Part shown: positions 2,440 through 37,683 of the stretch, one piece after another
Layout of the letters: every line of letters starts with the position of its first letter
Numbering within the stretch: the stretch's first letter is position 1
Virus record (IMG/VR): IMGVR_UViG_3300018412_000011
DNA: 64,000 nt
Strand: one strand, 5' to 3'
Source of the DNA: an uncultured virus (IMG/VR IMGVR_UViG_3300018412_000011)
Taxonomy: Duplodnaviria > Heunggongvirae > Uroviricota > Caudoviricetes
Notes under the pieces: model-generated
Told to the model about the DNA's origin: nothing
The model's database searches: none
The model's input: only the letters and a program-made list of their open reading frames with translations
Translations under genes and position numbers: made by a program

Positions 2440-2496
2440 ATTTGATCCTTTTTTATGTTATGTTAAAATACTACGCTTTTATGTTATGTTAAACGA

Positions 2497-2964
2497 CTAA
2501 CCAAAAATATCGTCGTCATCATCAAAAAACTCATTGTCATCTGTTTCTGAAGATTCTGAAGGTTCTGAAGGTTCAAATTCAGCCATTTCTTCTTCATTTT
2601 GCTTGCAAGTTTCCAAATCATCTTTTTGTTTTAACGCGATCTTTTCTTTCTTATCCAAAGCTGGGTTACTATCTTTTGCAATATTGGGGATATTTTTGTT
2701 ATTAAGCCATTCCGGAACTGTTTGGATAATAGCATCTTCAACTTCAACAACTTCCTTTCTTCCTTTGCCAACTCCATCAACAATAATTTGCATACTGTTT
2801 TGAAGAGACTCTACAAGATCTGTGGTTAAAGCTTTTTCTGCCTTTATTCTTTCTTCTTTTGAATTATATTCAATTTCTTCTTCGGCGTATTTAACCAACT
2901 CTATGTGTTGGAAATTTTTAAGATTAACCCTTAAATTAATTGATTCTGCTATTTTTCTTTTCAT
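2497..2964 (-). CDS. Hypothetical protein (ends in TAG)
   Basis: 155-aa ORF, AGGAG RBS, acidic tail. Confidence 0.65.
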   Translation of the reverse strand: MKRKIAESINLRVNLKNFQHIELVKYAEEEIEYNSKEERIKAEKALTTDLVESLQNSMQIIVDGVGKGRKEVVEVEDAIIQTVPEWLNNKNIPNIAKDSNPALDKKEKIALKQKDDLETCKQNEEEMAEFEPSEPSESSETDDNEFFDDDDDIFG

Positions 2965-2973
2965 TTTTTTCTC

Positions 2974-3684
2974 CTATAATTTTACATTTGAATTAGATAT
3001 TCTTGAAAACAAATTGCCTCCCCCAAAGCTTTCTACTTCCTCAACTTGTTTCTTTTTTTGTTTTCTTTCTTTATCTACAACTTTTTTAATGTCTTGATAT
3101 TTGTTTTTCAATTCATCTCTTTTCATGTCCCAAGCCGCATCCATGCATCCACAATCAACTAACGCCTCAAACACTCTTGATGTGACTCTTCTATTATCTA
3201 CTTTATGAATAAACTCTTTTAAAGAATTAAATGGTTGATTCTCAATAATACTTTCAACCGCTTTTTCTCCCACTCCCTTTAGAATAGTTAATGGACATCT
3301 GATAAATGTATAAGATTCGCCTTTTTTATTTATTCCTTCTTCTAGTAAAAAGTCTGAACCGCTTTTATTAATATTTGCTTTTTTAATAACAATTCCCATA
3401 TTTTGTGCCTCTTTTATATAAGAGTCTAATTTCACATTCTTGTCATTATTCGCAATTTCAGCAGTTAATAAATTACACATAAATTCTAATGGGTAGTGAA
3501 CTTTCAACCAAGCTGTTTGGTAAGATATCAATCCATACGAAACTGAATGGCTATTCATCGTTGGAATTTGGATATTGTTTTGGGGATCATATATAAAATA
3601 ATTATGTTGATCCGACTTCATAGTCAAACTATAACTTTTTTGTTTTCCTAATGACTTAATTGATTTGATTTTGCACTTTTTCAT
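2974..3684 (-). CDS. dnaE: DNA polymerase III alpha, piece 3: C-intein 2 plus C-terminal extein (HhH region)
   Basis: N-terminal MKKCKIKSIKSLGKQKSYSLTM...HNYF...PTMN is a C-intein. It is followed by SHSVSYGLISYQTAWLKVHYPLEF and IKGVGEKA-type DnaE motifs. Confidence 0.92.
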   Translation of the reverse strand: MKKCKIKSIKSLGKQKSYSLTMKSDQHNYFIYDPQNNIQIPTMNSHSVSYGLISYQTAWLKVHYPLEFMCNLLTAEIANNDKNVKLDSYIKEAQNMGIVIKKANINKSGSDFLLEEGINKKGESYTFIRCPLTILKGVGEKAVESIIENQPFNSLKEFIHKVDNRRVTSRVFEALVDCGCMDAAWDMKRDELKNKYQDIKKVVDKERKQKKKQVEEVESFGGGNLFSRISNSNVKL

Positions 3685-4807
3685 ATTTTCTTGTCAAGTA
3701 TAATTGAGATTTATCTTTGTCAAGATACAACCATTTAATGAAATCGTAAATCTTTTTTTTGCCTCCTCCAACTTTAACTACCCACATGTTATCAGTTGGG
3801 TGGTTTATCTTAAATTGAGGATGCAAGTCCTTAATTTGACAAGCAAACTTTTCAGATGCCGTAGTGCATATGTGACACCAAGGATATTGGGTTTGGCGAT
3901 TTATTCCCAAAGAACCATCGCCATCCATCAAACCTCTGAAAAATGAATTATGAAATTTTAAAGGAACGCAATTTGAATACTCCAAAATCTTTGACTTATT
4001 TCTCACAACCCCTAGATTTTTTAAATCATTGGCTATTTTTTTATTATTCACATTTAGTCTGACCATATCTTTTGCATTCATCCCCTTTTCTCTCCGATGA
4101 GATAAATCTATCTTTTGCAACCCATGAGTTTTGTCGGCTCCAATTAAAGAACTAATTTTTTCTAGAATATAGTAATCTTCTTTTGTTATTTGGATTTCAA
4201 AACCCAAATAATCCTTTTTAATATTGCCATCGGCCATTATAAAACCAAGAATATAAGCTTTTTCGGCAGAATCAATTTTTTCAAAAAAGTCTTCCTTGTA
4301 GTATGTTCGGACTTTGGGCAATCTTCTTTTAACTTCGTTCTTTCTTAAAATATCATAAATACTTTTACTAGTTTCATATCCATATTGCCTACTCAAAAAT
4401 TCTCCCGTTGCTCCACTTGTATATTCTTTAATAATTTTTTCTTCAATTTTATCATTATGTATTTTATTCCACGGCTCACCTCTAAAAGAATCTAAATCAT
4501 ATTTTCGTTTAATCCTAGTTAAAGTGGGATAGGGAACCTCAGTTAACTTCGAAATTTCTTTTAATTTAACTTTGTGAATTTTAGATTTTTGACAAAGAAG
4601 TCTCCAATATCTTTCCCTTTTATTTTGATAATTATTTTCGTTGATTACTCGTCGAACCACTCTCTCTGTTAAATTCGTTTCTTTTTCGATATTCTTCAAC
4701 AACTTCCTTTGGAAAAACATTTTTCGAATTATTTTTTTCTGATTTAGAGTTGTTATCTTTTTGTTGGGAGGTATTCTTTTGTTCATTTTCGGTTCCTTGC
4801 TGCACAT
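3656..4807 (-). CDS. Free-standing LAGLIDADG homing endonuclease between split-intein halves
   Basis: Two motifs, YILGFIMADG and FFRGLMDGDG, plus N-terminal helix-turn-helix-like repeats. Confidence 0.88.
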   Translation of the reverse strand: MCSKEPKMNKRIPPNKKITTLNQKKIIRKMFFQRKLLKNIEKETNLTERVVRRVINENNYQNKRERYWRLLCQKSKIHKVKLKEISKLTEVPYPTLTRIKRKYDLDSFRGEPWNKIHNDKIEEKIIKEYTSGATGEFLSRQYGYETSKSIYDILRKNEVKRRLPKVRTYYKEDFFEKIDSAEKAYILGFIMADGNIKKDYLGFEIQITKEDYYILEKISSLIGADKTHGLQKIDLSHRREKGMNAKDMVRLNVNNKKIANDLKNLGVVRNKSKILEYSNCVPLKFHNSFFRGLMDGDGSLGINRQTQYPWCHICTTASEKFACQIKDLHPQFKINHPTDNMWVVKVGGGKKKIYDFIKWLYLDKDKSQLYLTRKYEKVQNQIN

Positions 4808-11749: not shown

Positions 11750-12259
11750 TCAAATATCGTCGCCTTCTTCTGTATCTAATCCAGGTCTTAAATCTAAATT
11801 AAATTCAACATCTTGTTGCAACAAATTAGGAATAAGAGCAGGATCTTTTCGATTCCAATTAATTCCAATTGCATCAAACAAAACATTAAACCCTATGCAA
11901 TCGGGAGAATTCTTTTTATCGGGATCAGGAGTAATTTCCAAAAGTTTTTCAGTTAAAACAATTAATCTGACACTTTCGCTCCAAAAATTCCAATCGCTTG
12001 CATATAATTCAATAATATATCTAGTTGGGATTTGGTGTTTTTGGAATGCAGCTTTTTCAACTCCTTTGATATTTCTTAGTTTAGCCCATGTGGGATCTTT
12101 TTCTACTGATTTGTCAGTTCTTTCAGAATTATTCACTCCATAAACTGCAATTTGCTCTGGACGAATTGCCCAAAATAAATCAGGATATTTCTCTACTAAC
12201 ATTTTAATTTTATTATTTGCTTCTTCAATTACTTCGTATGTTCTCGGTGTTCGTGCCAT
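11750..12259 (-). CDS. Hypothetical protein, possibly of phage metallopeptidase-like fold (no HExxH)
   Basis: Likely start MARTPRTY after AGGAG; YIIEL...W...LIVL pattern. Confidence 0.45.
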   Translation of the reverse strand: MARTPRTYEVIEEANNKIKMLVEKYPDLFWAIRPEQIAVYGVNNSERTDKSVEKDPTWAKLRNIKGVEKAAFQKHQIPTRYIIELYASDWNFWSESVRLIVLTEKLLEITPDPDKKNSPDCIGFNVLFDAIGINWNRKDPALIPNLLQQDVEFNLDLRPGLDTEEGDDI

Positions 12260-12626
12260 GTATTTCTCCTTTTGTTTTATATTGAGTTTTAACAAGTCTT
12301 TGAACTTGTAAATACGCATTACAAGCTTTTTGGCTTGTTATTTATTACTTTCTTCATTTTTTGTTCTAGAATAAGATACAAACTGTTTAACTTGTTGTTA
12401 AATAATTTTCTTCGTTCTTCGCGACAAACAACAACTCTTTCACAATACTTAATGTCTTTTACCAAATTAAACTTATTGTGTTTTAAAAGGCATTTTTCCG
12501 CCACAACCATATTCCCTCTCTTTGCCATATATAGAGTTACCAATATTCCTAACAGTACATCCAAAATTATTTAATTTCTTTCAACTATCTAATAACTTTG
12601 CCTATTTTGCACTATAATAACTCAAG

Positions 12627-13352
12627 TCAAACTTCAAAAATTGAAATTTTTCCATTTTCTAGTATGGCATAATGATTATTGCAAGTGTCAATACAATAGT
12701 TGCCATTTATTCTAACTCTATCTGCACTCGTATGACCCACAACTTGAGGTAAACCTTCAATGTATTCACAATTGTCCCAATCAAGCCATAATAAATGACC
12801 CAAAGGTTTCGATCCCCCTCTTTTTTCTCCTATGTCATAAAATTCAGATTTATAAAGAGCCATATGTGGCTTTAATTCATCCCATTTTTGGCTAATTTCA
12901 ACAAGTTGATCTTCAATAGAGACAAAAGGCTTTAATTTGTTTGGGTGAAGACCAGCATGAGAAAACAAAACACCTTCTTGAAAATGAAACAACTTTGTGT
13001 TGAAAAAAAAGTCTTTCATTTCCATCTTTTTAATTTGTTTGGCTCTGTTTCTAGAATAACCAGTGCAAGAATAGATTTTGGATTCTGATCTTCTACCCCA
13101 GTTACAAGAATGTTGTATTTCTTCAAAATAGGGAACATCATGATTCCCAATCAACCATATAGCCTTATCTCCTAATTGACTCTTCTTTGCCTTCAACCAA
13201 ATACATAATTCATTAGTCCCAACAGCATCAGGGTCTTTATAGAAATCAAAATAATCTCCTAAAAACACAACCTTGTCAAACGTTTCTTTATCAAGAATCG
13301 CTTGTGCTTTATGGATTCGATGATGAATATCTGATATTATTAAAGTTCTCAT
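12627..13352 (-). CDS. Calcineurin-like metallophosphoesterase
   Basis: DIH, GDYFD, GNHD, HAG and GHT motifs. Confidence 0.9.
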   Translation of the reverse strand: MRTLIISDIHHRIHKAQAILDKETFDKVVFLGDYFDFYKDPDAVGTNELCIWLKAKKSQLGDKAIWLIGNHDVPYFEEIQHSCNWGRRSESKIYSCTGYSRNRAKQIKKMEMKDFFFNTKLFHFQEGVLFSHAGLHPNKLKPFVSIEDQLVEISQKWDELKPHMALYKSEFYDIGEKRGGSKPLGHLLWLDWDNCEYIEGLPQVVGHTSADRVRINGNYCIDTCNNHYAILENGKISIFEV

Positions 13353-13935
13353 GTCTTTCTAAAACTTTATTTAAAGCATCTCTAACGCTTTCAAAAGAAG
13401 ATGTAGACCCATCATAATGAATTGCATTAGGATGGCTATAATCCTTGTTTCCTTCGTTTTTAGGCAATATTCCTAACCCTCTAGGTCTATATTCTAGCCA
13501 TTTTTCCATAAAAGGTTGATAATCGTCAAATAAAACTGCTCCATAAAATAAACTTTTGTCAGTCACAATATTCATTTTAACAGGAATGTCAAGATTTTTT
13601 TTGATATTTTCTGTTTTTTCCATCCAAGAAAAAGACTTAGAAAATGGAGCTTGAGTGCAAATATGAATTTCAAATTCCATTTCATGCATTAACCTTACAA
13701 CGTCAATATTTTCCTCTAAGGGTTTTAAATTCACCCACCAACCATATTGGCTTGTAATCATATGCCTACGTCTTTCAAAAAGAAAGTTTTCGGAACACAT
13801 TTTCCATATATTGCCCTTGTATGAATCAATAAGATCCCTTTCTTCTTTTTTGGAGATTCGCTTTAAATCACGCAAAAAAGCCCCGTCATAATCGACAAGA
13901 GTTCCGTCCATATCTATTAATGCTATTTTTTTCAT
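13309..13935 (-). CDS. HAD-family 5'(3')-deoxyribonucleotidase-like protein
   Basis: DMDGTLVD, EK and LFDD motifs. Confidence 0.85.
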   Translation of the reverse strand: MKKIALIDMDGTLVDYDGAFLRDLKRISKKEERDLIDSYKGNIWKMCSENFLFERRRHMITSQYGWWVNLKPLEENIDVVRLMHEMEFEIHICTQAPFSKSFSWMEKTENIKKNLDIPVKMNIVTDKSLFYGAVLFDDYQPFMEKWLEYRPRGLGILPKNEGNKDYSHPNAIHYDGSTSSFESVRDALNKVLERHENFNNIRYSSSNP

Positions 13936-13944
13936 TTTTTAAAT

Positions 13945-14020
13945 TGGTGCTTGTGGTGGGATTCGAACCCACACTCTCAGAAGGTTAGAATTTCTGGCTC
14001 TACCATTGAGCTATACAAGC
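13945..14020 (-). tRNA. tRNA with CUA anticodon (amber suppressor candidate)
   Basis: 76-nt cloverleaf GCTTGTATAGCTCAATGGTAGAGC-CAGAAA-TTCTAAC-CTTCTG...GTGGGTTCGAATCCCAC...ACCA. The stem pairs only with CTA at 34-36; there are A:C mismatches at 7:66 and 31:39. Confidence 0.75.
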
Positions 14021-14025
14021 ATTTG

Positions 14026-14544
14026 TTATAAATATTTTTTGTCTACAAAATCAGTTAACCATACTCCATTTTCTGACAAATAAAAATCAATATTATCAAG
14101 CATCATAGGCGTTGTATTAATTTCTACAATCCAAGGCTTTTCATTCCCCCTGCAATGTCGCTTGCCAACTTTAATCGCAGTTTCTTTATCGGCGCTTAAA
14201 TGTACATGTTGTCGATTCATCTTTAAAAGACCTTTTTTAAGAATTTGATCTTTAATTCTAGGGGTTGTTCCATGATAAAGAGTCTTTGGGGGAACTGTTT
14301 TTTTAAGTTGAACATTTACTTGAATTGAATGTCCTTGATTCGCCCTTATTTTTGTTTTCTCCTCGTTGAAAGAAAAACGTTTTTTGTTGTTGGTTGCGAC
14401 AATATTTTCCAATTGGACAAAGCTCACTCCAACTTTTTTCAAAACTTCATCGACAAAACACCATCCATTTTTATCCATATTTAAATCTTCTGGATTATGT
14501 CTTAAGAGATATGAGAGCTTTTTGCTTACTTTTATATTGTTCAT
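14026..14544 (-). CDS. kptA: RNA 2'-phosphotransferase (Tpt1/KptA)
   Basis: LSYLLRH, KKRF, IRANQGHS, LYHGT and RQHVHLS motifs. Confidence 0.95.
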   Translation of the reverse strand: MNNIKVSKKLSYLLRHNPEDLNMDKNGWCFVDEVLKKVGVSFVQLENIVATNNKKRFSFNEEKTKIRANQGHSIQVNVQLKKTVPPKTLYHGTTPRIKDQILKKGLLKMNRQHVHLSADKETAIKVGKRHCRGNEKPWIVEINTTPMMLDNIDFYLSENGVWLTDFVDKKYL

Positions 14545-14966
14545 AATTTGTAATTTTTTATTAAATTTCTTTTTTCTTCTTCTAATTGTTGAAGTTTTTC
14601 GCGAGCCAAATCTTTGTCGAGCTTAAGCTTGAGGGAAGGAATTACCTCTATAATTGCTTTTTCAGTAAATCTTGAAACTACATTCGGAGTTGGGTCTTTG
14701 AACATAAAAACATAAAACCATCCATCTCCATATTCAATTCTAACCGAATCTCCGTTTTCAATTCTATCAAGACAATCAGAATAAATAGCATAATTTTCTC
14801 CTCCTAGCAACTTGTGTGTTCCATACCTAATGTAAGCACCTGCCTCTTCTACGGAAGAAAACAAATCCAAGTCTATATCTTCTAAAATATAATTTACATT
14901 TAATAGGATTCCATTGGGGAGTTCTATATCCGGTTGGGGAGATTTTTGTTTCTTTTCTACTTTCAT
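14541..14966 (-). CDS. Hypothetical protein
   Basis: 141-aa ORF overlapping the kptA start. Confidence 0.55.
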   Translation of the reverse strand: MKVEKKQKSPQPDIELPNGILLNVNYILEDIDLDLFSSVEEAGAYIRYGTHKLLGGENYAIYSDCLDRIENGDSVRIEYGDGWFYVFMFKDPTPNVVSRFTEKAIIEVIPSLKLKLDKDLAREKLQQLEEEKRNLIKNYKL

Positions 14967-14987
14967 AATTTATTTATTACGAAATAC

Positions 14988-15030
14988 AGGGAACTAAGTC
15001 AAGCGAAAACTCAACTTAGTTCCCCTTTTT
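14988..15030. terminator. Stem-loop downstream of the Pth2-like gene
   Basis: GGGAACTAAGT...ACTTAGTTCCC; the T-run is on the plus strand. Confidence 0.55.
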
Positions 15031-15031
15031 C

Positions 15032-15352
15032 TTACAACAATTTCAGATGTTTAAACAAATCTCCATGTCCTAAACATGAAATTGCTGTCACTTCATTGTT
15101 TTTGTCGGGTTCTCGAAAGAAAGAACTCTCACAGTTATTTTTTATAAGATAATTATAAAAAATGAAAAGTTCTTTTTCCGATTTGACTTTGAGATAGACC
15201 AATGTTCCATTTGTCCACTCTATATCAGGATGGTCAATTAAATGTTGAGCAACACAATGACCTGCCTGAACTGCTTGTTGAGATTTCGAAAGATCTCCCC
15301 TTACAAGAATGTAAAGTTTGGCATCCTATGTATTTTCGTCTTTATTATTCAC
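15032..15352 (-). CDS. Peptidyl-tRNA hydrolase 2 (Pth2)-like protein with an in-frame amber codon at codon 9
   Basis: GGAGG-N9-GTG start. Manual translation: MNNKDENT*DAKLYILVRGDLSKSQQAVQAGHCVAQ...WTNGTLVYLKV...FREPDKNNEVTAISC...LKLL. TAG at 15326-15328. Absent from the ORF track. Confidence 0.8.
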
Positions 15353-15740
15353 TTATTGCTTCCTCCACAGAGTTTTCCACAATTTTTGAATAATATTCGA
15401 CATATTCTTTCGTCTTCTTTTGAAGAGCTAGATAAATATAGTCGCTTTCTTGCATCTTCCTTGCTTTAGGTTCTATGACCTCAAGAGGAATTCCTCTTAA
15501 CTCCGCATATGCTCTAAGCAAGGCTCGTGTTGTTATTCTTTGATTACTTAGTTTCCCTTGTTCTCTCCAAGCGGCACCAGAACCCTTTCCCTTTTGCTTT
15601 TCTTTAATCGCGCCTTTGAGAATACGATTATAATTAGCATTCTTTTTAATTTCTTCTTTTAAACCTTTTAACTCATTTTTTTTCATTTTATTCTCCTTTT
15701 GTTTAATGTTATTTAAACCTTTTAACTCATTTTTTTTCAT
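15345..15740 (-). CDS. Basic helical hypothetical protein, upstream partner of the Pth2-like gene
   Basis: AGGAG RBS plus ATG, present twice (15740 and 15686) because of a 54-bp duplication. Confidence 0.7.
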   Translation of the reverse strand: MKKNELKGLNNIKQKENKMKKNELKGLKEEIKKNANYNRILKGAIKEKQKGKGSGAAWREQGKLSNQRITTRALLRAYAELRGIPLEVIEPKARKMQESDYIYLALQKKTKEYVEYYSKIVENSVEEAISE

Positions 15741-15765
15741 TTTATTCTCCTTTTGTTTAATGTTA
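15658..15765. repeat. 54-bp tandem duplication covering an RBS and start codon
   Basis: AAACCTTTTAACTCATTTTTTTTCATTTTATTCTCCTTTTGTTTAATGTTA recurs at 15661 and 15715. Confidence 0.9.
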
Positions 15766-15803
15766 ATTGAGTTATACAATTCACTACGTTTGAGAATAAA
15801 ACG

Positions 15804-15839
15804 TTAAGGTGGTTTGAAGATTTTGTGTGTCTAGGTCAT
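15804..15839 (-). CDS. Putative leader peptide M-T-amber-T-H-K-I-F-K-P-P
   Basis: ATG ACC TAG ACA CAC AAA ATC TTC AAA CCA CCT TAA, first ATG after a consensus promoter. Confidence 0.55.
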
Positions 15840-15876
15840 GATATTTATTTTCTTTATATTTTCTTGATGTTATGGC

Positions 15877-15904
15877 ATTATACCTTCATTCAACTTAAAG
15901 TCAA
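15877..15904 (-). promoter_or_regulatory. Sigma-70-type promoter of the leader/Pth2 operon
   Basis: TTGACT-N16-TATAAT. Confidence 0.75.
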
Positions 15905-15912
15905 CAAAAAAA

Positions 15913-16155
15913 TCATTTTCTTTGTCCTTCTAAAAAAGCTTGCTTGGTTTTTTCTTTCATTTTAATCAAATCATCAATTTCAAGATTCCAGTTCGCAGCA
16001 TATGCTTCAATTGCCCCAATCAAATCGCACAATTCACAAATCTGTAAAATTTGATCATCTTGTTCCCAAGCATCTTCTAGTTCCAAAAATTCTTCTTTTA
16101 TTTTAGAAAATTCTCCTAAAACTCCTTTTTCTATTGTGTTTTTATGATAACCCAT
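15913..16155 (-). CDS. Small acidic helical protein, MazG/NTP-pyrophosphatase-like
   Basis: KIKEEFLELEDA...ELCDLIGA (EExxE...ExxD); in frame directly after the TAG of the upstream gene. Confidence 0.55.
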   Translation of the reverse strand: MGYHKNTIEKGVLGEFSKIKEEFLELEDAWEQDDQILQICELCDLIGAIEAYAANWNLEIDDLIKMKEKTKQAFLEGQRK

Positions 16156-16812
16156 CTATCTTCGCTCCCAAGCATTTATTGCACTAGAAAATCTAGGTTC
16201 CGCCAAACCTGTGCCAAAAATCCAGAAAAAACCCTCATATTCCCTGAATCCGTAAGAGCCAAGTTCCAATATATCTGAACCGATATCTACACTTAAATCA
16301 ATAACAGCATTATTAACCAAGTCTCTATAAGAATGTCGATTCAAAAAACTAAAAAGATCTTCGAGACTTTTAAATTGTTCTGTAGATTTTCCCCTTTTTT
16401 CATTTTTCATTTCAATAAAAAACAAGATGTCTGCATATCTTGAGAAAAAATTCCAAGCTGAATGAAGCATCCATAATAAATCCTCTTTGCTTTCAGACTG
16501 GTTATGAATTAATTCATTTTTAAGAAAATACTTGGCGTGGTCTTTATTAAAAGAATCTTGAAACCTAAAACATGGAGTAACAGTTTGGAATCTCCCTTTA
16601 GGCAAAAACCCCTTTACCATTAAATATAAAAAAGATTGTTCTCCTGATGCTACTAAAGTTTTTTTAGTTCCCTCTATTAAAGGAGAGGGGACTGGATGAG
16701 GATTAGTGATTTCAGAAACTTGAGAATTAACCGTCCAAGGAGACTCTATTCTTATGAATTCTTCTGACTCATAATGCAATATTGAATCTTGAATGTTCTG
16801 ATAATTAATCAT
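16156..16812 (-). CDS. Class II aminoacyl-tRNA synthetase-like catalytic domain (stand-alone)
   Basis: Motif 1-like FIRIESPW, motif 2-like TPCFR...HAKYF, ELGSYG and motif 3-like WIFGTGLAEPR; no anticodon-binding domain. Confidence 0.7.
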   Translation of the reverse strand: MINYQNIQDSILHYESEEFIRIESPWTVNSQVSEITNPHPVPSPLIEGTKKTLVASGEQSFLYLMVKGFLPKGRFQTVTPCFRFQDSFNKDHAKYFLKNELIHNQSESKEDLLWMLHSAWNFFSRYADILFFIEMKNEKRGKSTEQFKSLEDLFSFLNRHSYRDLVNNAVIDLSVDIGSDILELGSYGFREYEGFFWIFGTGLAEPRFSSAINAWERR

Positions 16813-16967
16813 AAACTTATTTTAACGATTTTCGTTTTTCTTTTCGTTTTTCTTTTTTTTGTTTAAGTGTTTTTTAACAATATCTCTATCATACTTTGTT
16901 CCTTCGCACTCTGGAAACAATTGAGTATCTAGCCGAGGCAATTTTTCTTTTTCTTTTTTATCTTTTT

Positions 16968-17855
16968 TCATAATACATTATATAACTTGTTATCGTATAT
17001 ATACTCCATTACTTCTTTTGTCAAGAAATTGTTTAGATTTTCAGTAGTTCCTCTTGCAAATGCATCTCTAACCAATGTGGAAGAAACTTGAGGAATATCG
17101 TTGTCGGGAGATAAAAAGATATGGGGGGCTTTTAAATACCAATTAATATTGTGATCTATTTTAATACCTTTCCTAGGAACAACCACAAAACGAATCATTC
17201 TTTCTAATAATTCATAATTAACCCATTTATCAAGTGTGTTCGCATTATCTAAACCAATAATCAAGGAAAAATCATATTCATTTTTGGCAAAATCTTCATC
17301 CAAAAGAGATTTTACAAATTTATAAGTTTCTCCACTCAAACCATTTTTGATTTCATAATCAAAAACCTTAATGCGACCATCAAATTGAGTAGCTAGTTTG
17401 CACATAGCCAAACGATGTTCGGCGCTTTCCATTTCTTTACCATACATGTGGTTTGCACATGGCATTAACCATACTTCATCAAATGTTTTACTGGAGTTCA
17501 AAACAAATTGAGCTAATTTTATGTGACCAATAGTAGGAGGATTAAATGCGCCTCCTAAAATGGCCACTTTTATTTTTCTTCCCAAGGTTTTGTATTGTAG
17601 TTTTCTTTTTTGAATTTTCTGCAAAGTGTTTAAAACAAGTTCTTCATAATTCCAATCGTTTTCATTGCAAAGTTGAATTGTAGAAGCAAGTAGATCTCCA
17701 ACTTCCTCTTTCATGTTTTTAAAATCGGTGAAACGATGAAGTTCCAAGGCTTCCCCCATAATATCATCAATTCTCTCTTTTAATGGAGTTCTTCCGAAAT
17801 TTTCTTCAAAAACCTCATTTACTTTTTCTTCAAGTTTTTTCATCGTTTTTCTCAA
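16968..17855 (-). CDS. MazG-like domain fused to nicotinate/nicotinamide mononucleotide adenylyltransferase (NadD-like)
   Basis: N-terminal GEALEL...EEVGDLL; C-terminal GGAFNPPTIGH, IIGLDN and VSSTLVR. Confidence 0.88.
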   Translation of the reverse strand: MRKTMKKLEEKVNEVFEENFGRTPLKERIDDIMGEALELHRFTDFKNMKEEVGDLLASTIQLCNENDWNYEELVLNTLQKIQKRKLQYKTLGRKIKVAILGGAFNPPTIGHIKLAQFVLNSSKTFDEVWLMPCANHMYGKEMESAEHRLAMCKLATQFDGRIKVFDYEIKNGLSGETYKFVKSLLDEDFAKNEYDFSLIIGLDNANTLDKWVNYELLERMIRFVVVPRKGIKIDHNINWYLKAPHIFLSPDNDIPQVSSTLVRDAFARGTTENLNNFLTKEVMEYIYDNKLYNVL

Positions 17856-18176
17856 TTAAAATTTTCTCGTCCTCTAAACTTCTATCTTCGGCATATATCA
17901 CGATTTCTTTTCTCACTCTGTTTCCCTTTGAGTAGAATATACATTGAAGTTCTTTCCCTGAATGGGTAATTTTGAAAGTGCTTTCTATATCTTGCTTTCC
18001 TAAACTTTCTCGAATACTTCTTATTATAGCTTCTTCAAAATATTCATCTGCAATTTCTGTATTCTCAAAATCTTCTTTGTAAAAGTAAAATTCTAATTGT
18101 TTCCCTTTCGACAAATGATAATATTCTTCATTTAACAAAGAGTATTCATTGTTTGGATTAATAGCTAAAAGAAATT

Positions 18177-31470: not shown

Positions 31471-31557
31471 TGGTGGGCGCAGAGGGAGTCGAACCCCCGT
31501 TGAGATTTTATTCTCGCGGCTTAAAAGGCCGATGCATAACCATTCTGCCATACACCC
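31471..31557 (-). tRNA. tRNA-Lys(TTT) with a long variable arm
   Basis: 87-nt cloverleaf; CGGC-CTTTTAA-GCCG; variable stem GAGA..TCTC; ACCA. Confidence 0.8.
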
Positions 31558-37591: not shown

Positions 37592-37683
37592 TGGTAGGCA
37601 GAGTGGGACTCGAACCCACACTTCGTACACGATTAGTCAGAGTTTATAAGACTCCCGGCTTCACCAAATTTGCCTATCTGCCT
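37592..37683 (-). tRNA. tRNA-Ile(TAT) with a long variable arm
   Basis: Acceptor AGGCAGA/TCTGCCT-ACCA; GGAGT-CTTATAA-ACTCT; 19-nt variable region. Confidence 0.8.

What the first reader, a model, noticed from the sequence alone, without database searches (positions are those of the whole stretch)
15032..15904. Amber-dependent operon: Met-Thr-UAG...Pro-Pro leader and a Pth2-like gene needing UAG read-through
Seen: a consensus promoter, a mini-ORF M-T-TAG-T-H-K-I-F-K-P-P-TAA, a basic protein, then a Pth2-like ORF with a GGAGG RBS, GTG start and TAG at codon 9. No in-frame ATG/GTG/TTG lies between the TAG and the conserved KLYILVRGDL motif. Two early TAGs in one operon argue against a chance nonsense mutation. 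Inference: a peptidyl-tRNA hydrolase made only when UAG termination (RF1) is impaired or suppressed, analogous to prfB autoregulation. This would be the stop-codon member of the leader-sensor set.
Basis: partly seen in the sequence, partly recalled or inferred. Interest (0 to 1): 0.88.

Follow-up and report, generated by a model that had tools for sequence, protein, structure and literature searches.

The report
Amber-codon-gated leader in phage operon
A phage operon for a small basic protein and a peptidyl-tRNA-hydrolase-like enzyme appears to be switched on only when the phage's own amber-suppressor tRNA reads through UAG codons placed in a short stalling leader peptide and at the start of the enzyme gene.

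Summary
The window is phage DNA with all genes on the minus strand. It holds a promoter-like site, then a 12-codon leader M-T-UAG-T-H-K-I-F-K-P-P-UAA. Next come a basic-protein gene and a PTH2-fold gene (GGAGG, GTG, UAG at codon 9).

Among relatives, a tRNA(CUA) follows the PTH2-like gene in 57 of 77 unique loci. The basic protein sits upstream in most loci and is fused to the PTH2-like domain in some. In 47 of 57 upstream regions, UAG is followed in frame by Pro-Pro (TAA 0, TGA 1; 2.6% in control windows). That Pro-Pro mostly ends R-G/S/D/A-P-P, a known ribosome-arrest motif. In 46 of 47 leaders the stall site overlaps the sequence that pairs with the basic gene's Shine-Dalgarno site.

Twelve of 100 homologues carry a UAG within their first codons, and none carries UAA or UGA there. 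These phages are not recoded genome-wide. Three metagenome runs show the same sequence.

My reading is that the leader senses amber suppression. Read-through lets ribosomes reach the stall site, which frees the ribosome-binding site. What the enzyme then does is inferred, not shown.

The parts
15877..15904 (-). Promoter-like site TTGACT-16 nt-TATAAT upstream of the leader
   Evidence: 11 of 12 consensus matches. This is a pattern match only, and the region has no more such sites than shuffles do.
15804..15839 (-). Leader ORF M-T-UAG-T-H-K-I-F-K-P-P-UAA. The amber codon is at 15833-15831, Pro-Pro at 15812-15807 and the stop at 15806-15804.
   Evidence: for the sequence. Homologous amber...Pro-Pro leaders occur in 47 of 57 unique upstream regions and in 5 of 6 fused-form loci. 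It is the only start-x-TAG...PP instance on the coding strand of the whole 64-kb window.
15792..15803 (-). Anti-SD arm CGUUUUAUUCUC, immediately 3' of the leader's stop codon
   Evidence: in both the MFE and the centroid structure it pairs with GAGAAUAAAAUG (-15.8 kcal/mol, z -1.88); it lies at +9..+20 from the first Pro codon, so 10 of its 12 nt fall inside the -3..+18 window taken as the footprint of a ribosome stalled there.
15738..15749 (-). 3' arm of the helix: most of the Shine-Dalgarno GGAG (all but its first G), the spacer, and the first AUG of the basic-protein gene (GAGAAUAAAAUG)
   Evidence: Duplex with the leader's 3' end is -9.0 kcal/mol, against -4.2 +/- 2.2 for control windows.
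15345..15740 (-). Gene for a basic helical protein of no known family. The first ATG is at 15740 and a duplicate SD+ATG at 15686; the stop is TAA 15347-15345.
   Evidence: A family HMM matches 93 ORFs lying upstream of, or fused to, the PTH2-like domain in the 115 loci. Pfam, PHROGs, NCBIfam and PADLOC give no match. The AF2 model is a helical hairpin with pLDDT 81 and no PDB match at E<=0.001.
15658..15765 (-). Perfect 54-bp tandem duplication that doubles the SD, the ATG and the first 18 codons of the basic-protein gene
   Evidence: period 54, 2.0 copies, 100% identical. Contigs from the runs break here, and the junction piece has a lower depth than the flanks.
15032..15366 (-). PTH2-fold gene: SD GGAGG 15366-15362, GTG 15352-15350 (overlapping the end of the basic gene), in-frame UAG 15328-15326 at codon 9, stop TAA 15034-15032
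   Evidence: PF01981 scores 17.7 bits, below the cut-off of 23. The AF2 model has pLDDT 90.5; Foldseek's best hits are archaeal Pth2 2zv3 (TM 0.74, E 2e-7), then 1wn2, 3erj, 1xty and human Bit1 1q7s. 91 homologues were found.
14988..15025 (-). Terminator-like 17-bp hairpin directly after the PTH2-like stop codon
13945..14020 (-). tRNA with anticodon CUA (amber suppressor type): 7-nt loop UUCUAAC, encoded CCA end
   Evidence: ARAGORN; Rfam tRNA, 53.2 bits, E 1.3e-9; sequence.

Best explanation
This is a phage translation module with three conserved parts: a basic helical protein, a PTH2-fold hydrolase and an amber-suppressor tRNA(CUA). A leader peptide that measures amber suppression controls it.

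Inferred mechanism. Ribosomes start on the short leader and meet UAG at codon 3. If release factor wins, they leave after two residues. The 3' end of the leader then stays paired with the Shine-Dalgarno site and AUG of the basic-protein gene, and the operon is not translated. If charged tRNA(CUA) decodes the UAG, the ribosome continues to a Pro-Pro-stop. In most relatives this is R-G/A/S/D-P-P, the RAPP class of arrest sequences. The ribosome stalls there. Its footprint covers the anti-SD sequence, the ribosome-binding site opens, and the basic protein is made.

The PTH2-like gene overlaps the end of the basic gene, which suggests that its translation is coupled to it. In this window it carries a second UAG at codon 9, so the enzyme needs suppression twice.

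Shown here: the sequence anatomy, its conservation, the peptide-level selection downstream of UAG, the predicted pairing, the PTH2 fold, and the tRNA linkage.

Inferred: that the tRNA is charged and suppresses, that the ribosome stalls, that stalling switches the operon on, and what the enzyme does. My best guess for the enzyme is that, together with the basic partner, it hydrolyses peptidyl- or N-blocked aminoacyl-tRNA by-products that arise when UAG is read through, or acts on the suppressor tRNA itself.
For: **Module**
- tRNA(CUA) lies in the window.
- It lies on the same strand downstream of the PTH2-like gene in 27 of 35 viral loci. Across all loci it does so in 57 of 77 unique loci that have at least 700 bp downstream: 22 within 60 nt and 53 within 1 kb.
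- 89 of the 263 tRNAs in these loci have anticodon CTA. The next most common anticodon has 12.
- All 8 complete genomes with a homologue that I checked have at least one: Myrna, pT24, G009, XacN1, RAS14, Xoo-sp13, Lak-A1 and Lak-B4.
- The basic-protein HMM matches 93 ORFs lying upstream of, or fused to, the PTH2-like domain.

**Leader**
- TAG followed within 12 codons by in-frame Pro-Pro occurs in 47 of 57 unique upstream regions. The figures are 0 for TAA, 1 for TGA, and 2.6% for 937 control windows.
- The four residues ending at that Pro-Pro (the last Pro-Pro where a leader has several) are RGPP 21, RSPP 6, RDPP 4, RPPP 2 and RAPP 2.
- Arg is encoded by AGR 17 times and by CGN 18 times, so selection acts on the peptide and not on the nucleotides.
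- A stop follows Pro-Pro directly in 21 of 47 leaders.
- 5 of 6 fused-form loci have M-x-UAG-[VI]-x-[KR]-P-P-UAA.
- RAPP and RGPP are experimentally shown arrest cores, and RDPP and RSPP are partly permissive (PMC12992588, passages; PMC10951233, abstract).

**SD masking**
- The MFE structure pairs the SD with the leader's 3' end in 32 of 33 leaders.
- This duplex beats 95% of control windows in 29 of 33.
- At least 3 nt of the SD/AUG partner lie within -3..+18 of the first Pro codon in 46 of 47.
- Window fold.

**Gate inside the gene**
- 12 gated loci plus 1 TAG locus with no start, out of 100, and none with TAA or TGA.
- An SD precedes the leader ATG in most of them.
- The base after the gate UAG is a purine in 14 of 15, against 50% in controls.
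- On the tree the trait needs 8 changes, at least 3 of them forced by well-supported branches.

**Not wholesale recoding**.

**The TAG is not an assembly error**.

**PTH2 fold**.
Against: - There is no expression, proteomic or biochemical evidence of any kind.
- The window's own leader ends F-K-P-P-stop (no Arg) and has no clear SD.
- The window's fold is only modestly better than shuffles (z -1.88; 9 of 200 shuffles fold as well).
- The 54-bp duplication supplies a second SD+ATG outside the helix, which could bypass the control.
- RNAalifold on a MAFFT alignment of nine leaders found no consensus helix. So the pairing evidence is per sequence, not formal covariation.
- 87 of 100 homologues start normally, so the in-gene gate is a minority state.
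- 10 of 57 upstream regions lack UAG...PP as I defined it. Several of these have R-S-P-stop or R-D-S-P-W variants.
- 20 of 77 loci show no tRNA(CUA) in the flank I fetched.
- Three fragmentary contigs with gated genes show no tRNA(CUA).
- In the window, a terminator-like hairpin and two genes separate the operon from the tRNA.
- The window protein scores below Pfam's PTH2 cut-off.
- The loci are unique sequences, not independent lineages. At 70% identity, 30 of 35 clusters carry the leader.
- The amino acid carried by the tRNA is unknown.
Confidence: 0.72

Rival explanations
1. The sensor reports the state of host termination (RF1 shortage or damage) or suppression from any source, and not the phage's own tRNA.
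For: The leader would respond to any rise in UAG read-through. In the window the tRNA is not adjacent and may be transcribed separately. In L034, pT24, XacN1, RAS14, Xoo-sp13 and the Lak phages the tRNA lies far from the gene.
Against: The tight and widespread linkage of the operon to a tRNA(CUA) (57 of 77 loci, 22 of them within 60 nt; 8 of 8 complete genomes) is hard to explain if the phage tRNA is irrelevant to the signal.
Confidence: 0.1
2. These phages always read UAG as an amino acid (a code-15-like genome). On this view the UAGs in the leader and the gene are ordinary codons with no regulatory role.
For: A suppressor tRNA is present. Homologues occur in Lak phages, which are reported to reassign UAG (PMC7162821, passage).
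Against: No long ORF in the window has an internal TAG, and TAG closes 9 ORFs of at least 100 codons. Coding density in the window and in 8 related contigs is 0.83-0.95 under the standard code. Reading TAG as sense changes it no more than reading TGA or TAA as sense does. UAG is concentrated in the leaders (one to three per leader) and at codons 2-9 of the gated genes.
Confidence: 0.07
3. The conserved TAG...CCNCC pattern is an RNA or DNA element (anti-SD, promoter) that is never translated past the TAG. The M-x-TAG is just a two-codon minigene.
For: In many loci CCUCC is itself the anti-SD. In L176, L175 and L016 the short ATG-x-TAG is out of frame with the Pro-Pro. ATGACGTAG...TAGATT loosely resembles promoter hexamers (my own reading of the output).
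Against: The spacing between UAG and Pro-Pro varies from 2 to 9 codons but is always in frame. Arg before Pro-Pro uses both the AGR and CGN codon families. The Pro codons vary at their third positions. A stop follows Pro-Pro directly in 21 of 47 leaders. In the window, L011, L017 and L026 the Pro-Pro codons are kept even though the anti-SD lies elsewhere. Many leaders have strong SDs of their own.
Confidence: 0.06
4. The UAG in the window's PTH2-like gene is a nonsense or frameshift lesion (pseudogene), or translation starts after it. For example, the out-of-frame ATG in TAG-G-ATG-CC could be a remnant of ATG-GCC.
For: Most homologues start M-x(1-3)-KLY at about this position. An ATG sits one base after the TAG in another frame.
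Against: The same layout recurs in 12 unique loci and in pT24, always with TAG. A strong SD sits 9 nt before the upstream GTG, and none precedes the out-of-frame ATG. The sequence is identical in three runs. The three closest protein relatives were called from starts inside the first beta strand, which suggests their 5' ends are also blocked. I could not read their DNA.
Confidence: 0.05

Closest known systems
RAPP/RGPP-class ribosome arrest peptides (ApdA, ApdP; related to SecM, MifM) encoded upstream of the genes they regulate
   Same: A short upstream ORF ends in R-A/G-P-P or Pro-Pro. The stall site overlaps an RNA helix that hides the downstream ribosome-binding site. 35 of 47 leaders end R-x-P-P and 21 end RGPP. 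RGPP is reported as the strongest arrest core (PMC12992588, passages).
   Different: The input differs. Known members sense protein export or membrane insertion through a pulling force on the nascent chain. Here the arrest motif is reached only if an in-frame UAG, usually 3-5 codons before it, is suppressed. The leaders are far shorter (8-25 codons). The regulated genes are a PTH2-like enzyme and its partner, in phages. The window's own leader ends FKPP-stop, without Arg.
prfB (RF2) autoregulation through an early in-frame UGA
   Same: An early in-frame stop codon serves as a meter of how that stop is being decoded, and it sets the output of a translation-factor gene.
   Different: prfB needs a +1 frameshift and makes the factor that terminates at that same codon. 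Here reading stays in frame, needs a suppressor tRNA, and the product is a hydrolase-fold protein whose link to UAG decoding is inferred. The comparison is drawn from my own knowledge of prfB.
Stop-codon-recoded phages (Lak, crAss-like and others) that carry suppressor tRNAs and switch code late in infection
   Same: They have a phage-encoded tRNA(CUA), and in-frame UAG delays a gene until the suppressor works (Borges et al. preprint 10.1101/2021.08.26.457843, passages). Lak phages carry a homologue of the PTH2-like gene.
   Different: The window and 8 related contigs are not recoded genome-wide. Here UAG sits in a dedicated leader and at the 5' end of one gene. A term search of that preprint found no occurrence of peptidyl, hydrolase or Pth.
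Engineered UAG-gated leader-peptide switches (amber codon placed in the trp/tna leaders to control downstream genes)
   Same: The downstream gene depends on translating a leader past an inserted UAG (review PMC6412442, section 6 and the Fig. 8 legend).
   Different: Those are synthetic, act on transcription termination, and respond to an unnatural amino acid. This one is natural, appears to act on translation initiation, and sits next to its own tRNA.
PTH2 of jumbo phages (Iyer et al. 2021, PMC7824862)
   Same: Archaeo-eukaryotic-type peptidyl-tRNA hydrolase genes are noted across jumbo phages and are proposed to help ribosome rescue (passages).
   Different: A term search of that paper found no occurrence of 'suppressor'. 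The passages it returned mention no partner protein and no in-frame amber codon.

Membership tests
PTH2 peptidyl-tRNA hydrolase (PF01981) | Sequence match to the family profile above the curated cut-off | tested here: not met
   Window protein: 17.7 bits, E 0.0042, cut-off 23. The XacN1 homologue reaches 25.3 bits, and some homologues carry a precomputed PF01981 label. Profile A1 against solved Pth2 sequences gives E 3e-4.
PTH2 peptidyl-tRNA hydrolase (PF01981) | PTH2 alpha/beta fold | tested here: met
   AF2 pLDDT 90.5. Foldseek's top 11 rows are all Pth2 or Bit1 structures, with TM 0.69-0.75 and E 2e-7 to 5.5e-5.
PTH2 peptidyl-tRNA hydrolase (PF01981) | Catalytic residues (Lys, Asp and Thr as reported for archaeal Pth2; recalled, not from a call) | tested here: inconclusive
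   D83 and T89 are invariant in 29 sequences, in E-P-D-x5-T-A. The G-K-G-K stretch of Pth2 is replaced by S-K-S-Q-Q (alignment). I did not superpose the residues.
PTH2 peptidyl-tRNA hydrolase (PF01981) | Hydrolysis of peptidyl-tRNA | not testable with these tools
   Needs an enzyme assay.
RAPP-class arrest peptide leaders | C-terminal R-A/G-P-P core | tested here: not met
   The window leader ends F-K-P-P-stop. Among relatives, 35 of 47 leaders end R-x-P-P (RGPP 21, RAPP 2, RSPP 6, RDPP 4, RPPP 2).
RAPP-class arrest peptide leaders | Encoded just upstream of the regulated gene, with the stall site overlapping a structure that masks its ribosome-binding site | tested here: met
   Window: anti-SD at 15803-15792 pairs with SD/AUG at 15749-15738. 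Relatives: 46 of 47, and 29 of 33 beat 95% of controls.
RAPP-class arrest peptide leaders | Demonstrated translation arrest | not testable with these tools
   Needs toeprinting or reporter assays.
Stop-codon-recoded (code 15-like) phage | Suppressor tRNA for the recoded stop | tested here: met
   tRNA(CUA) at 13945..14020.
Stop-codon-recoded (code 15-like) phage | In-frame TAG in a large share of genes, with coding density rising when TAG is read as sense | tested here: not met
   No internal TAG in the window's long ORFs. Density is 0.828 under the standard code, 0.843 with TAG as sense, 0.844 with TGA and 0.882 with TAA. Only 64 kb of this genome is held.
prfB-type autoregulatory recoding | Programmed +1 frameshift at the in-frame stop | tested here: not met
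   The conserved core is in the same frame as the GTG and the TAG.

The most novel reading that the evidence does not exclude
The module is a self-measuring homeostat for amber suppression. The leader reads the current efficiency of the phage's tRNA(CUA). Its output, a basic tRNA- or ribosome-binding protein plus a PTH2-fold hydrolase, acts back on the suppressor pathway. It might strip or recycle (peptidyl-)aminoacyl-tRNA(CUA), or clear the products of read-through. Where the two proteins are joined through a UAG, their ratio would be set directly by suppression efficiency.

This would give a function, and a first target, to the 'orphan' amber-suppressor tRNAs of standard-code jumbo phages such as XacN1, whose authors found no target genes. 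It would also be the first natural leader peptide that senses stop-codon read-through.
Probability: 0.3. Interest if true: 0.93.

Novelty: new variant of a known kind. Interest (0 to 1): 0.9.

Why it matters
Three points matter if this is true.

1. It would be a natural regulatory leader whose input is the decoding of a stop codon. That adds a new signal to the arrest-peptide class. It would also be a natural counterpart of engineered UAG switches.

2. It ties a previously unlinked trio together across many phages: an unknown basic protein, a phage PTH2-like enzyme and a tRNA(CUA). It also gives a concrete target for suppressor tRNAs in phages that do not recode their genomes. The XacN1 authors stated that they could not find such targets (PMC5852040), and XacN1's own homologue shows SD-ATG-AAG-TAG in frame before its annotated start.

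3. It corrects annotation. Gene callers truncate these genes or start them inside the fold (pT24 gp293; P0002-P0004).

My searches and term searches within papers found no description of the leader, the gene-tRNA linkage or the gate. The library lacks most subscription journals, so this is not proof of absence.

Tried and rejected
**Rejected**
- Wholesale TAG recoding.
- An assembly error at the TAG: three runs agree. Contigs drop rare variants.
- An initiator-type tRNA starting translation at UAG. The anticodon stem lacks the three G-C pairs, and the SD spacing fits the upstream ATG or GTG.

**Led nowhere**
- The window's whole genome is not held, so late genes could not be checked.
- No RNA holder is listed among the sequencing runs.
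- RNAalifold on nine MAFFT-aligned leaders gave no helix, because the variable spacers misalign. I used per-sequence duplex tests instead.
- The crude genome-wide scan for other amber-gated genes was too noisy in GC-rich contigs. A few candidates are listed under Noticed in passing.
- Foldseek on the basic-protein model found no match at E<=0.001.
- Pfam, PHROGs, NCBIfam and PADLOC gave nothing for the basic protein.
- Rfam found only the tRNA in 12000-18000.
- Three look-ups of earlier findings returned nothing.
- A complex prediction for the basic protein with the PTH2-like protein could not be run. Whether the two proteins bind therefore rests only on the fused forms.
- The amino-acid identity of tRNA(CUA) could not be inferred. 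The acceptor stems and discriminator bases vary among the 77 unique tRNAs.
- The DNA of the three closest protein relatives (P0002-P0004) could not be fetched, so conservation of the window's codon-9 TAG in near kin is untested.
- My first ATG-x(1-4)-TAG definition under-counted leaders (39 of 59). The relaxed in-frame TAG...PP definition replaced it.
- The tree was built with XacN1 and RAS14 labelled as not gated, before one search showed their upstream M-K-TAG. L034 and L121 were dropped from it by my length filter.
Full report
**What is in the window**

All long ORFs lie on the minus strand. GC content is 32% and eight tRNA genes are present. The DNA has only weak matches to large Clostridioides phages and to a 634-kb uncultured phage. 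Near-identical sequence occurs in three freshwater metagenome runs. I read the window as part of a large phage genome.

Read on the minus strand, the finding's region holds the following:
- A promoter-like TTGACT-16-TATAAT at 15904..15877.
- The mini-ORF ATG ACC TAG ACA CAC AAA ATC TTC AAA CCA CCT TAA at 15839..15804.
- An ORF for a basic protein ending at 15345.
- The PTH2-like ORF: GGAGG, nine bases, GTG at 15352, TAG at 15328-15326 (codon 9), then DAKLYILVRGDL and onward to TAA at 15034-15032.
- A 17-bp terminator-like hairpin at 15025..14988.

No ATG, GTG or TTG lies between the TAG and the conserved core. Contigs of three runs match the stretch without a single differing letter, at depths of 32-92. 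An assembly error is therefore unlikely, though one run may be the window's own source.

ARAGORN and Rfam find a tRNA with anticodon CUA at 13945..14020 on the same strand. It scores 53.2 bits, has a normal 7-nt loop UUCUAAC and an encoded CCA end. Two genes separate it from the operon: an unknown ORF and a Tpt1/KptA RNA 2'-phosphotransferase.

**The enzyme**

- The part after the TAG matches Pfam PTH2 only weakly (17.7 bits; cut-off 23).
- It has 91 homologues of 58-186 residues.
- An AlphaFold model built on 29 of them has pLDDT 90.5.
- Foldseek's best matches are all Pth2 or Bit1 structures: 2zv3 at TM 0.74 and E 2e-7, then 1wn2, 1q7s, 3erj and 1xty.
- A profile of the family finds solved Pth2 sequences at E 3e-4.
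- The family has its own invariant signature L-S-x-S-Q-Q-A-V-Q-x-x-H ... E-x-D ... T.

I therefore call it PTH2-fold. Hydrolase activity is untested.

**The gene-tRNA linkage**

I fetched 35 viral and 80 metagenome loci using the protein alone as the query. What lies beside the gene was therefore not selected for.
- A tRNA(CUA) lies downstream on the same strand in 27 of the 35 viral loci.
- It does so in 57 of 77 unique loci with at least 700 bp of downstream sequence: 22 within 60 nt and 53 within 1 kb.
- Of 263 tRNAs in these loci, 89 have anticodon CTA (77 unique sequences). The next most common anticodon has 12.
- Homologues also occur in 28 phage records.
- All eight complete genomes I checked hold at least one tRNA(CUA): Myrna (130 nt downstream of gp84), pT24, the 343-kb IMG/VR genome G009, XacN1, RAS14, Xoo-sp13, Lak-A1 and Lak-B4.

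**Not a recoded genome**

- In the window no long ORF has an internal TAG, and TAG closes 9 ORFs of at least 100 codons.
- A greedy ORF tiling gives coding densities of 0.83-0.95 under the standard code for the window and eight related contigs. Reading TAG as sense adds no more than the TGA or TAA controls do.

So these are standard-code phages that carry an amber suppressor. The XacN1 authors described exactly that situation and could not find target genes (PMC5852040, passages).

**The gate inside the gene**

I classified the 5' ends of 115 loci, which give 102 unique contexts:
- 87 have an ordinary start 1-7 codons before the core.
- 2 are cut off by the contig end.
- 12 have start-x(1-5)-TAG-x(1-6)-core.
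- 1 has TAG with no start nearby.

None is interrupted by TAA or TGA. Yet in the normal loci the nearest upstream in-frame stop is TAA in 34, TGA in 28 and TAG in 21. That gives P about 1.7e-8 for 13 of 13.

Further details:
- Good Shine-Dalgarno sequences precede the leader ATG in most gated loci, for example GGAGG-7-ATG ACC TAG in L018.
- The base after the gate TAG is A in 11 and a purine in 14 of 15, against 26% and 50% after other TAGs. From memory, a purine in that position favours amber suppression.
- In three loci (L121, L133, L165) the upstream ORF runs straight into the TAG and then the core, so read-through would fuse the two proteins.
- Cultured phage pT24 has ATG AAA TAG and then 19 codons before the core. 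Its annotated CDS starts inside the fold.
- XacN1, RAS14 and Xoo-sp13 have SD-ATG-AAG-(AAG)-TAG in frame before their annotated starts. In XacN1 and Xoo-sp13 an ATG follows a few codons later.
- On a maximum-likelihood tree the trait needs 8 changes, at least 3 of them forced by well-supported branches. That tree was built before I knew of the XacN1-type gates.

**The basic protein is part of the unit**

- The upstream ORF of L121, L133 and L165 is homologous to the window's basic protein.
- An HMM iterated from it matches 93 ORFs in the 115 loci. They lie directly upstream of the PTH2-like gene or form the N-terminal half of fused proteins (L020, L022-L024, L027, L028, L030).
- The family has about 100 residues, with a conserved R-H-x-H-I-A-Y-C-x-L-R-G-R-x-x-E-Q-I-E. 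The window's copy is divergent.
- It has no Pfam, PHROGs, NCBIfam or PADLOC match.
- It folds as a helical hairpin plus a C-terminal helix (pLDDT 81), with no PDB match at E<=0.001.

**The leader is conserved**

This result changed my reading. In the 120 nt upstream of the basic gene, ATG-x(1-4)-TAG occurs 37 times in 58 loci. The counts for TAA and TGA are 8 and 5.

Reading through the TAG gives peptides such as these (TAG shown as *):
- MT*TGFT*IRGPP
- MT*IQIPP*IRGPP
- MW*VKTSPP*GNSRSPP
- MT*GLDKQRAPP
- MK*IKIPP
- ML*VRPP
- MH*VHKPP
- MT*THKIFKPP (the window)

With a frame-aware definition (TAG, at most 12 codons with no other stop, then Pro-Pro):
- 47 of 57 unique 170-nt upstream regions qualify.
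- TAA gives 0 and TGA gives 1.
- 2.6% of 937 random windows from the same loci qualify.
- 5 of 6 fused-form loci have M-x-TAG-[VI]-x-[KR]-P-P-TAA.

The four residues ending at the leader's last Pro-Pro are RGPP 21, RSPP 6, RDPP 4, RPPP 2 and RAPP 2, with K/R/I/N-PP in the rest. Arg is encoded 17 times by AGR and 18 times by CGN. The Pro codons vary at their third positions. The spacing from the last TAG to Pro-Pro is 2-9 codons, always in frame. A stop follows Pro-Pro directly in 21 of 47. The base after the TAG is a purine in 45 of 47.

Selection therefore acts on the peptide encoded after the amber codon. That is the strongest evidence here that ribosomes read through it.

RAPP and RGPP are experimentally established arrest cores, RGPP is the strongest, and RDPP and RSPP are partly permissive (PMC12992588, passages; PMC10951233 and PMC7897499, abstracts). 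At 70% identity of the PTH2-like core, 30 of 35 clusters with a tested upstream region carry the leader.

**How the leader could act**

- In MFE folds, the Shine-Dalgarno site of the basic gene pairs with the leader's 3' end in 32 of 33 leaders. Often the Pro codons CCUCC themselves pair with GGAGG. The helix continues with different sequences in different loci.
- The duplex between the 37-nt window around Pro-Pro and the SD segment is better than 95% of control windows from the same locus in 29 of 33, and better than 99% in 22 of 33.
- In 46 of 47 leaders, at least 3 nt of the SD/AUG partner lie between -3 and +18 of the first Pro codon. I take that span as the expected footprint of a ribosome stalled there.
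- In the window, the anti-SD CGUUUUAUUCUC (15803-15792) starts right after the leader's UAA and pairs with GAGAAUAAAAUG (15749-15738). The energy is -15.8 kcal/mol and z is -1.88.
- No run of U follows the helix, so I read it as control of translation, not of transcription.

A ribosome released at codon 3 would never reach the helix. One that reads through and stalls at Pro-Pro-stop would open it.

The PTH2-like GTG overlaps the basic gene's stop (GTGAATAA), which suggests translational coupling. In the window its own UAG adds a second requirement for suppression.

**What the products do**

This is inference. Iyer et al. noted PTH2 in jumbo phages and proposed ribosome rescue (PMC7824862, passages).

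Because the operon is tied to a suppressor tRNA and is made only when suppression works, I think the pair deals with a consequence of read-through. One option is recycling peptidyl-tRNA or clearing N-blocked aminoacyl-tRNA. The other is acting on the suppressor itself as feedback. The presence of homologues in UAG-recoded Lak phages argues for a supporting role rather than a purely limiting one.

**Weak points**

- There are no expression data.
- The window's leader lacks Arg and a clear SD.
- The 54-bp perfect duplication (15658-15765) provides a second, unmasked SD+ATG.
- Formal covariation could not be computed.
- The loci are unique sequences, not independent lineages.
- Only 64 kb of this phage is held.
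- The DNA of the closest protein relatives (P0002-P0004, 60-72% identical) could not be read. Their calls start inside the first beta strand, which hints at the same block.

**Novelty**

Searches for suppressor tRNA with peptidyl-tRNA hydrolase, for Pth2 with phage and suppressor, and for leader peptide with amber codon found no description. Term searches in the main recoding and jumbo-phage papers found none either. The nearest things in print are RAPP-class arrest leaders, prfB, recoded phages and synthetic UAG-gated leaders (review PMC6412442).

I rate this a new variant of a known kind of regulator, joined to a previously unlinked three-part phage module.

Noticed in passing
window 15658-15765 (-): A perfect 54-bp tandem duplication doubles the SD, the ATG and the first 18 codons of the basic-protein gene. 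Contigs from all three runs break here. The junction piece has a lower depth than the flanks (36 against 57-60; 35 against 75-92; 16 against 32). The duplication may therefore be polymorphic in the population, and it could bypass the leader's control.
   Followed up: partly
window 15913-16812 (-): The class-II aaRS-like ORF (16156..16812; weak PF00152 hit) ends in TAG. The ATG of a MazG/PRA-PH-like ORF (15913..16155) follows immediately in the same frame, so amber read-through would fuse the two.
   Followed up: no
window 2479-3693 (-): ORF 2974..3684 ends in TAG and is in frame with ORF 2497..2964, which also ends in TAG with a TAA six codons later. This is another possible read-through pair. 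Several other TAG-terminated ORFs have a back-up TAA or TGA 3-15 codons later.
   Followed up: no
L036 (XacN1), L038 (RAS14), L039 (Xoo-sp13), L040 (pT24): The annotated starts of the PTH2-like genes in these cultured phages look wrong. SD-ATG-AAG-(AAG)-TAG lies in frame upstream in the three Xanthomonas/Stenotrophomonas phages. pT24 gp293 is annotated from inside the fold. XacN1's N-terminal domain is phrog_14850, not the basic-protein family.
   Followed up: partly
L176, L175, L016 (about 110 nt upstream of the basic gene): Here the arrest leader has no start of its own. It is the read-through extension of an upstream ORF ending ...C-E-(D/E)-W-x-D-E-TAG, followed by (I/V)-A-R-P-P ... TAG ... 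R-G-P-P.
   Followed up: no
L140:1740-2500: A 237-codon ORF rich in K-K-H/S-E-E-H-K-K repeats (it looks like a homing endonuclease to me; I did not test this) sits between the basic-protein gene and the amber-gated PTH2-like gene.
   Followed up: no
G001 (L031 contig) 11472 (+); G002 (L034 contig) 7326 (-): Other candidate amber-gated genes in relatives: MK*IIEKLKETKQAE... (190 codons, 1.5 kb upstream of the PTH2-like gene) and MY*DSKVGRS... (361 codons). They come from a noisy scan.
   Followed up: no
Alignment A2 (basic-protein family): Many members end ...(T/A)-(L/I/V)-C-x-S-A at the very C terminus and also have the Cys of A-Y-C. The window's copy lacks both. The meaning is unknown.
   Followed up: no
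L041, L042 (Lak-A1, Lak-B4): A tRNA with anticodon TTA lies about 700 nt upstream of the Lak PTH2-like gene. Their tRNA(CUA) genes lie elsewhere. RAS14 also has a tRNA(TTA).
   Followed up: no
window 31471-31557, 37592-37683 (-): tRNA-Lys(TTT) and tRNA-Ile(TAT) are called at 87 and 92 nt, unusually long for these types. They may contain introns or be miscalled.
   Followed up: no
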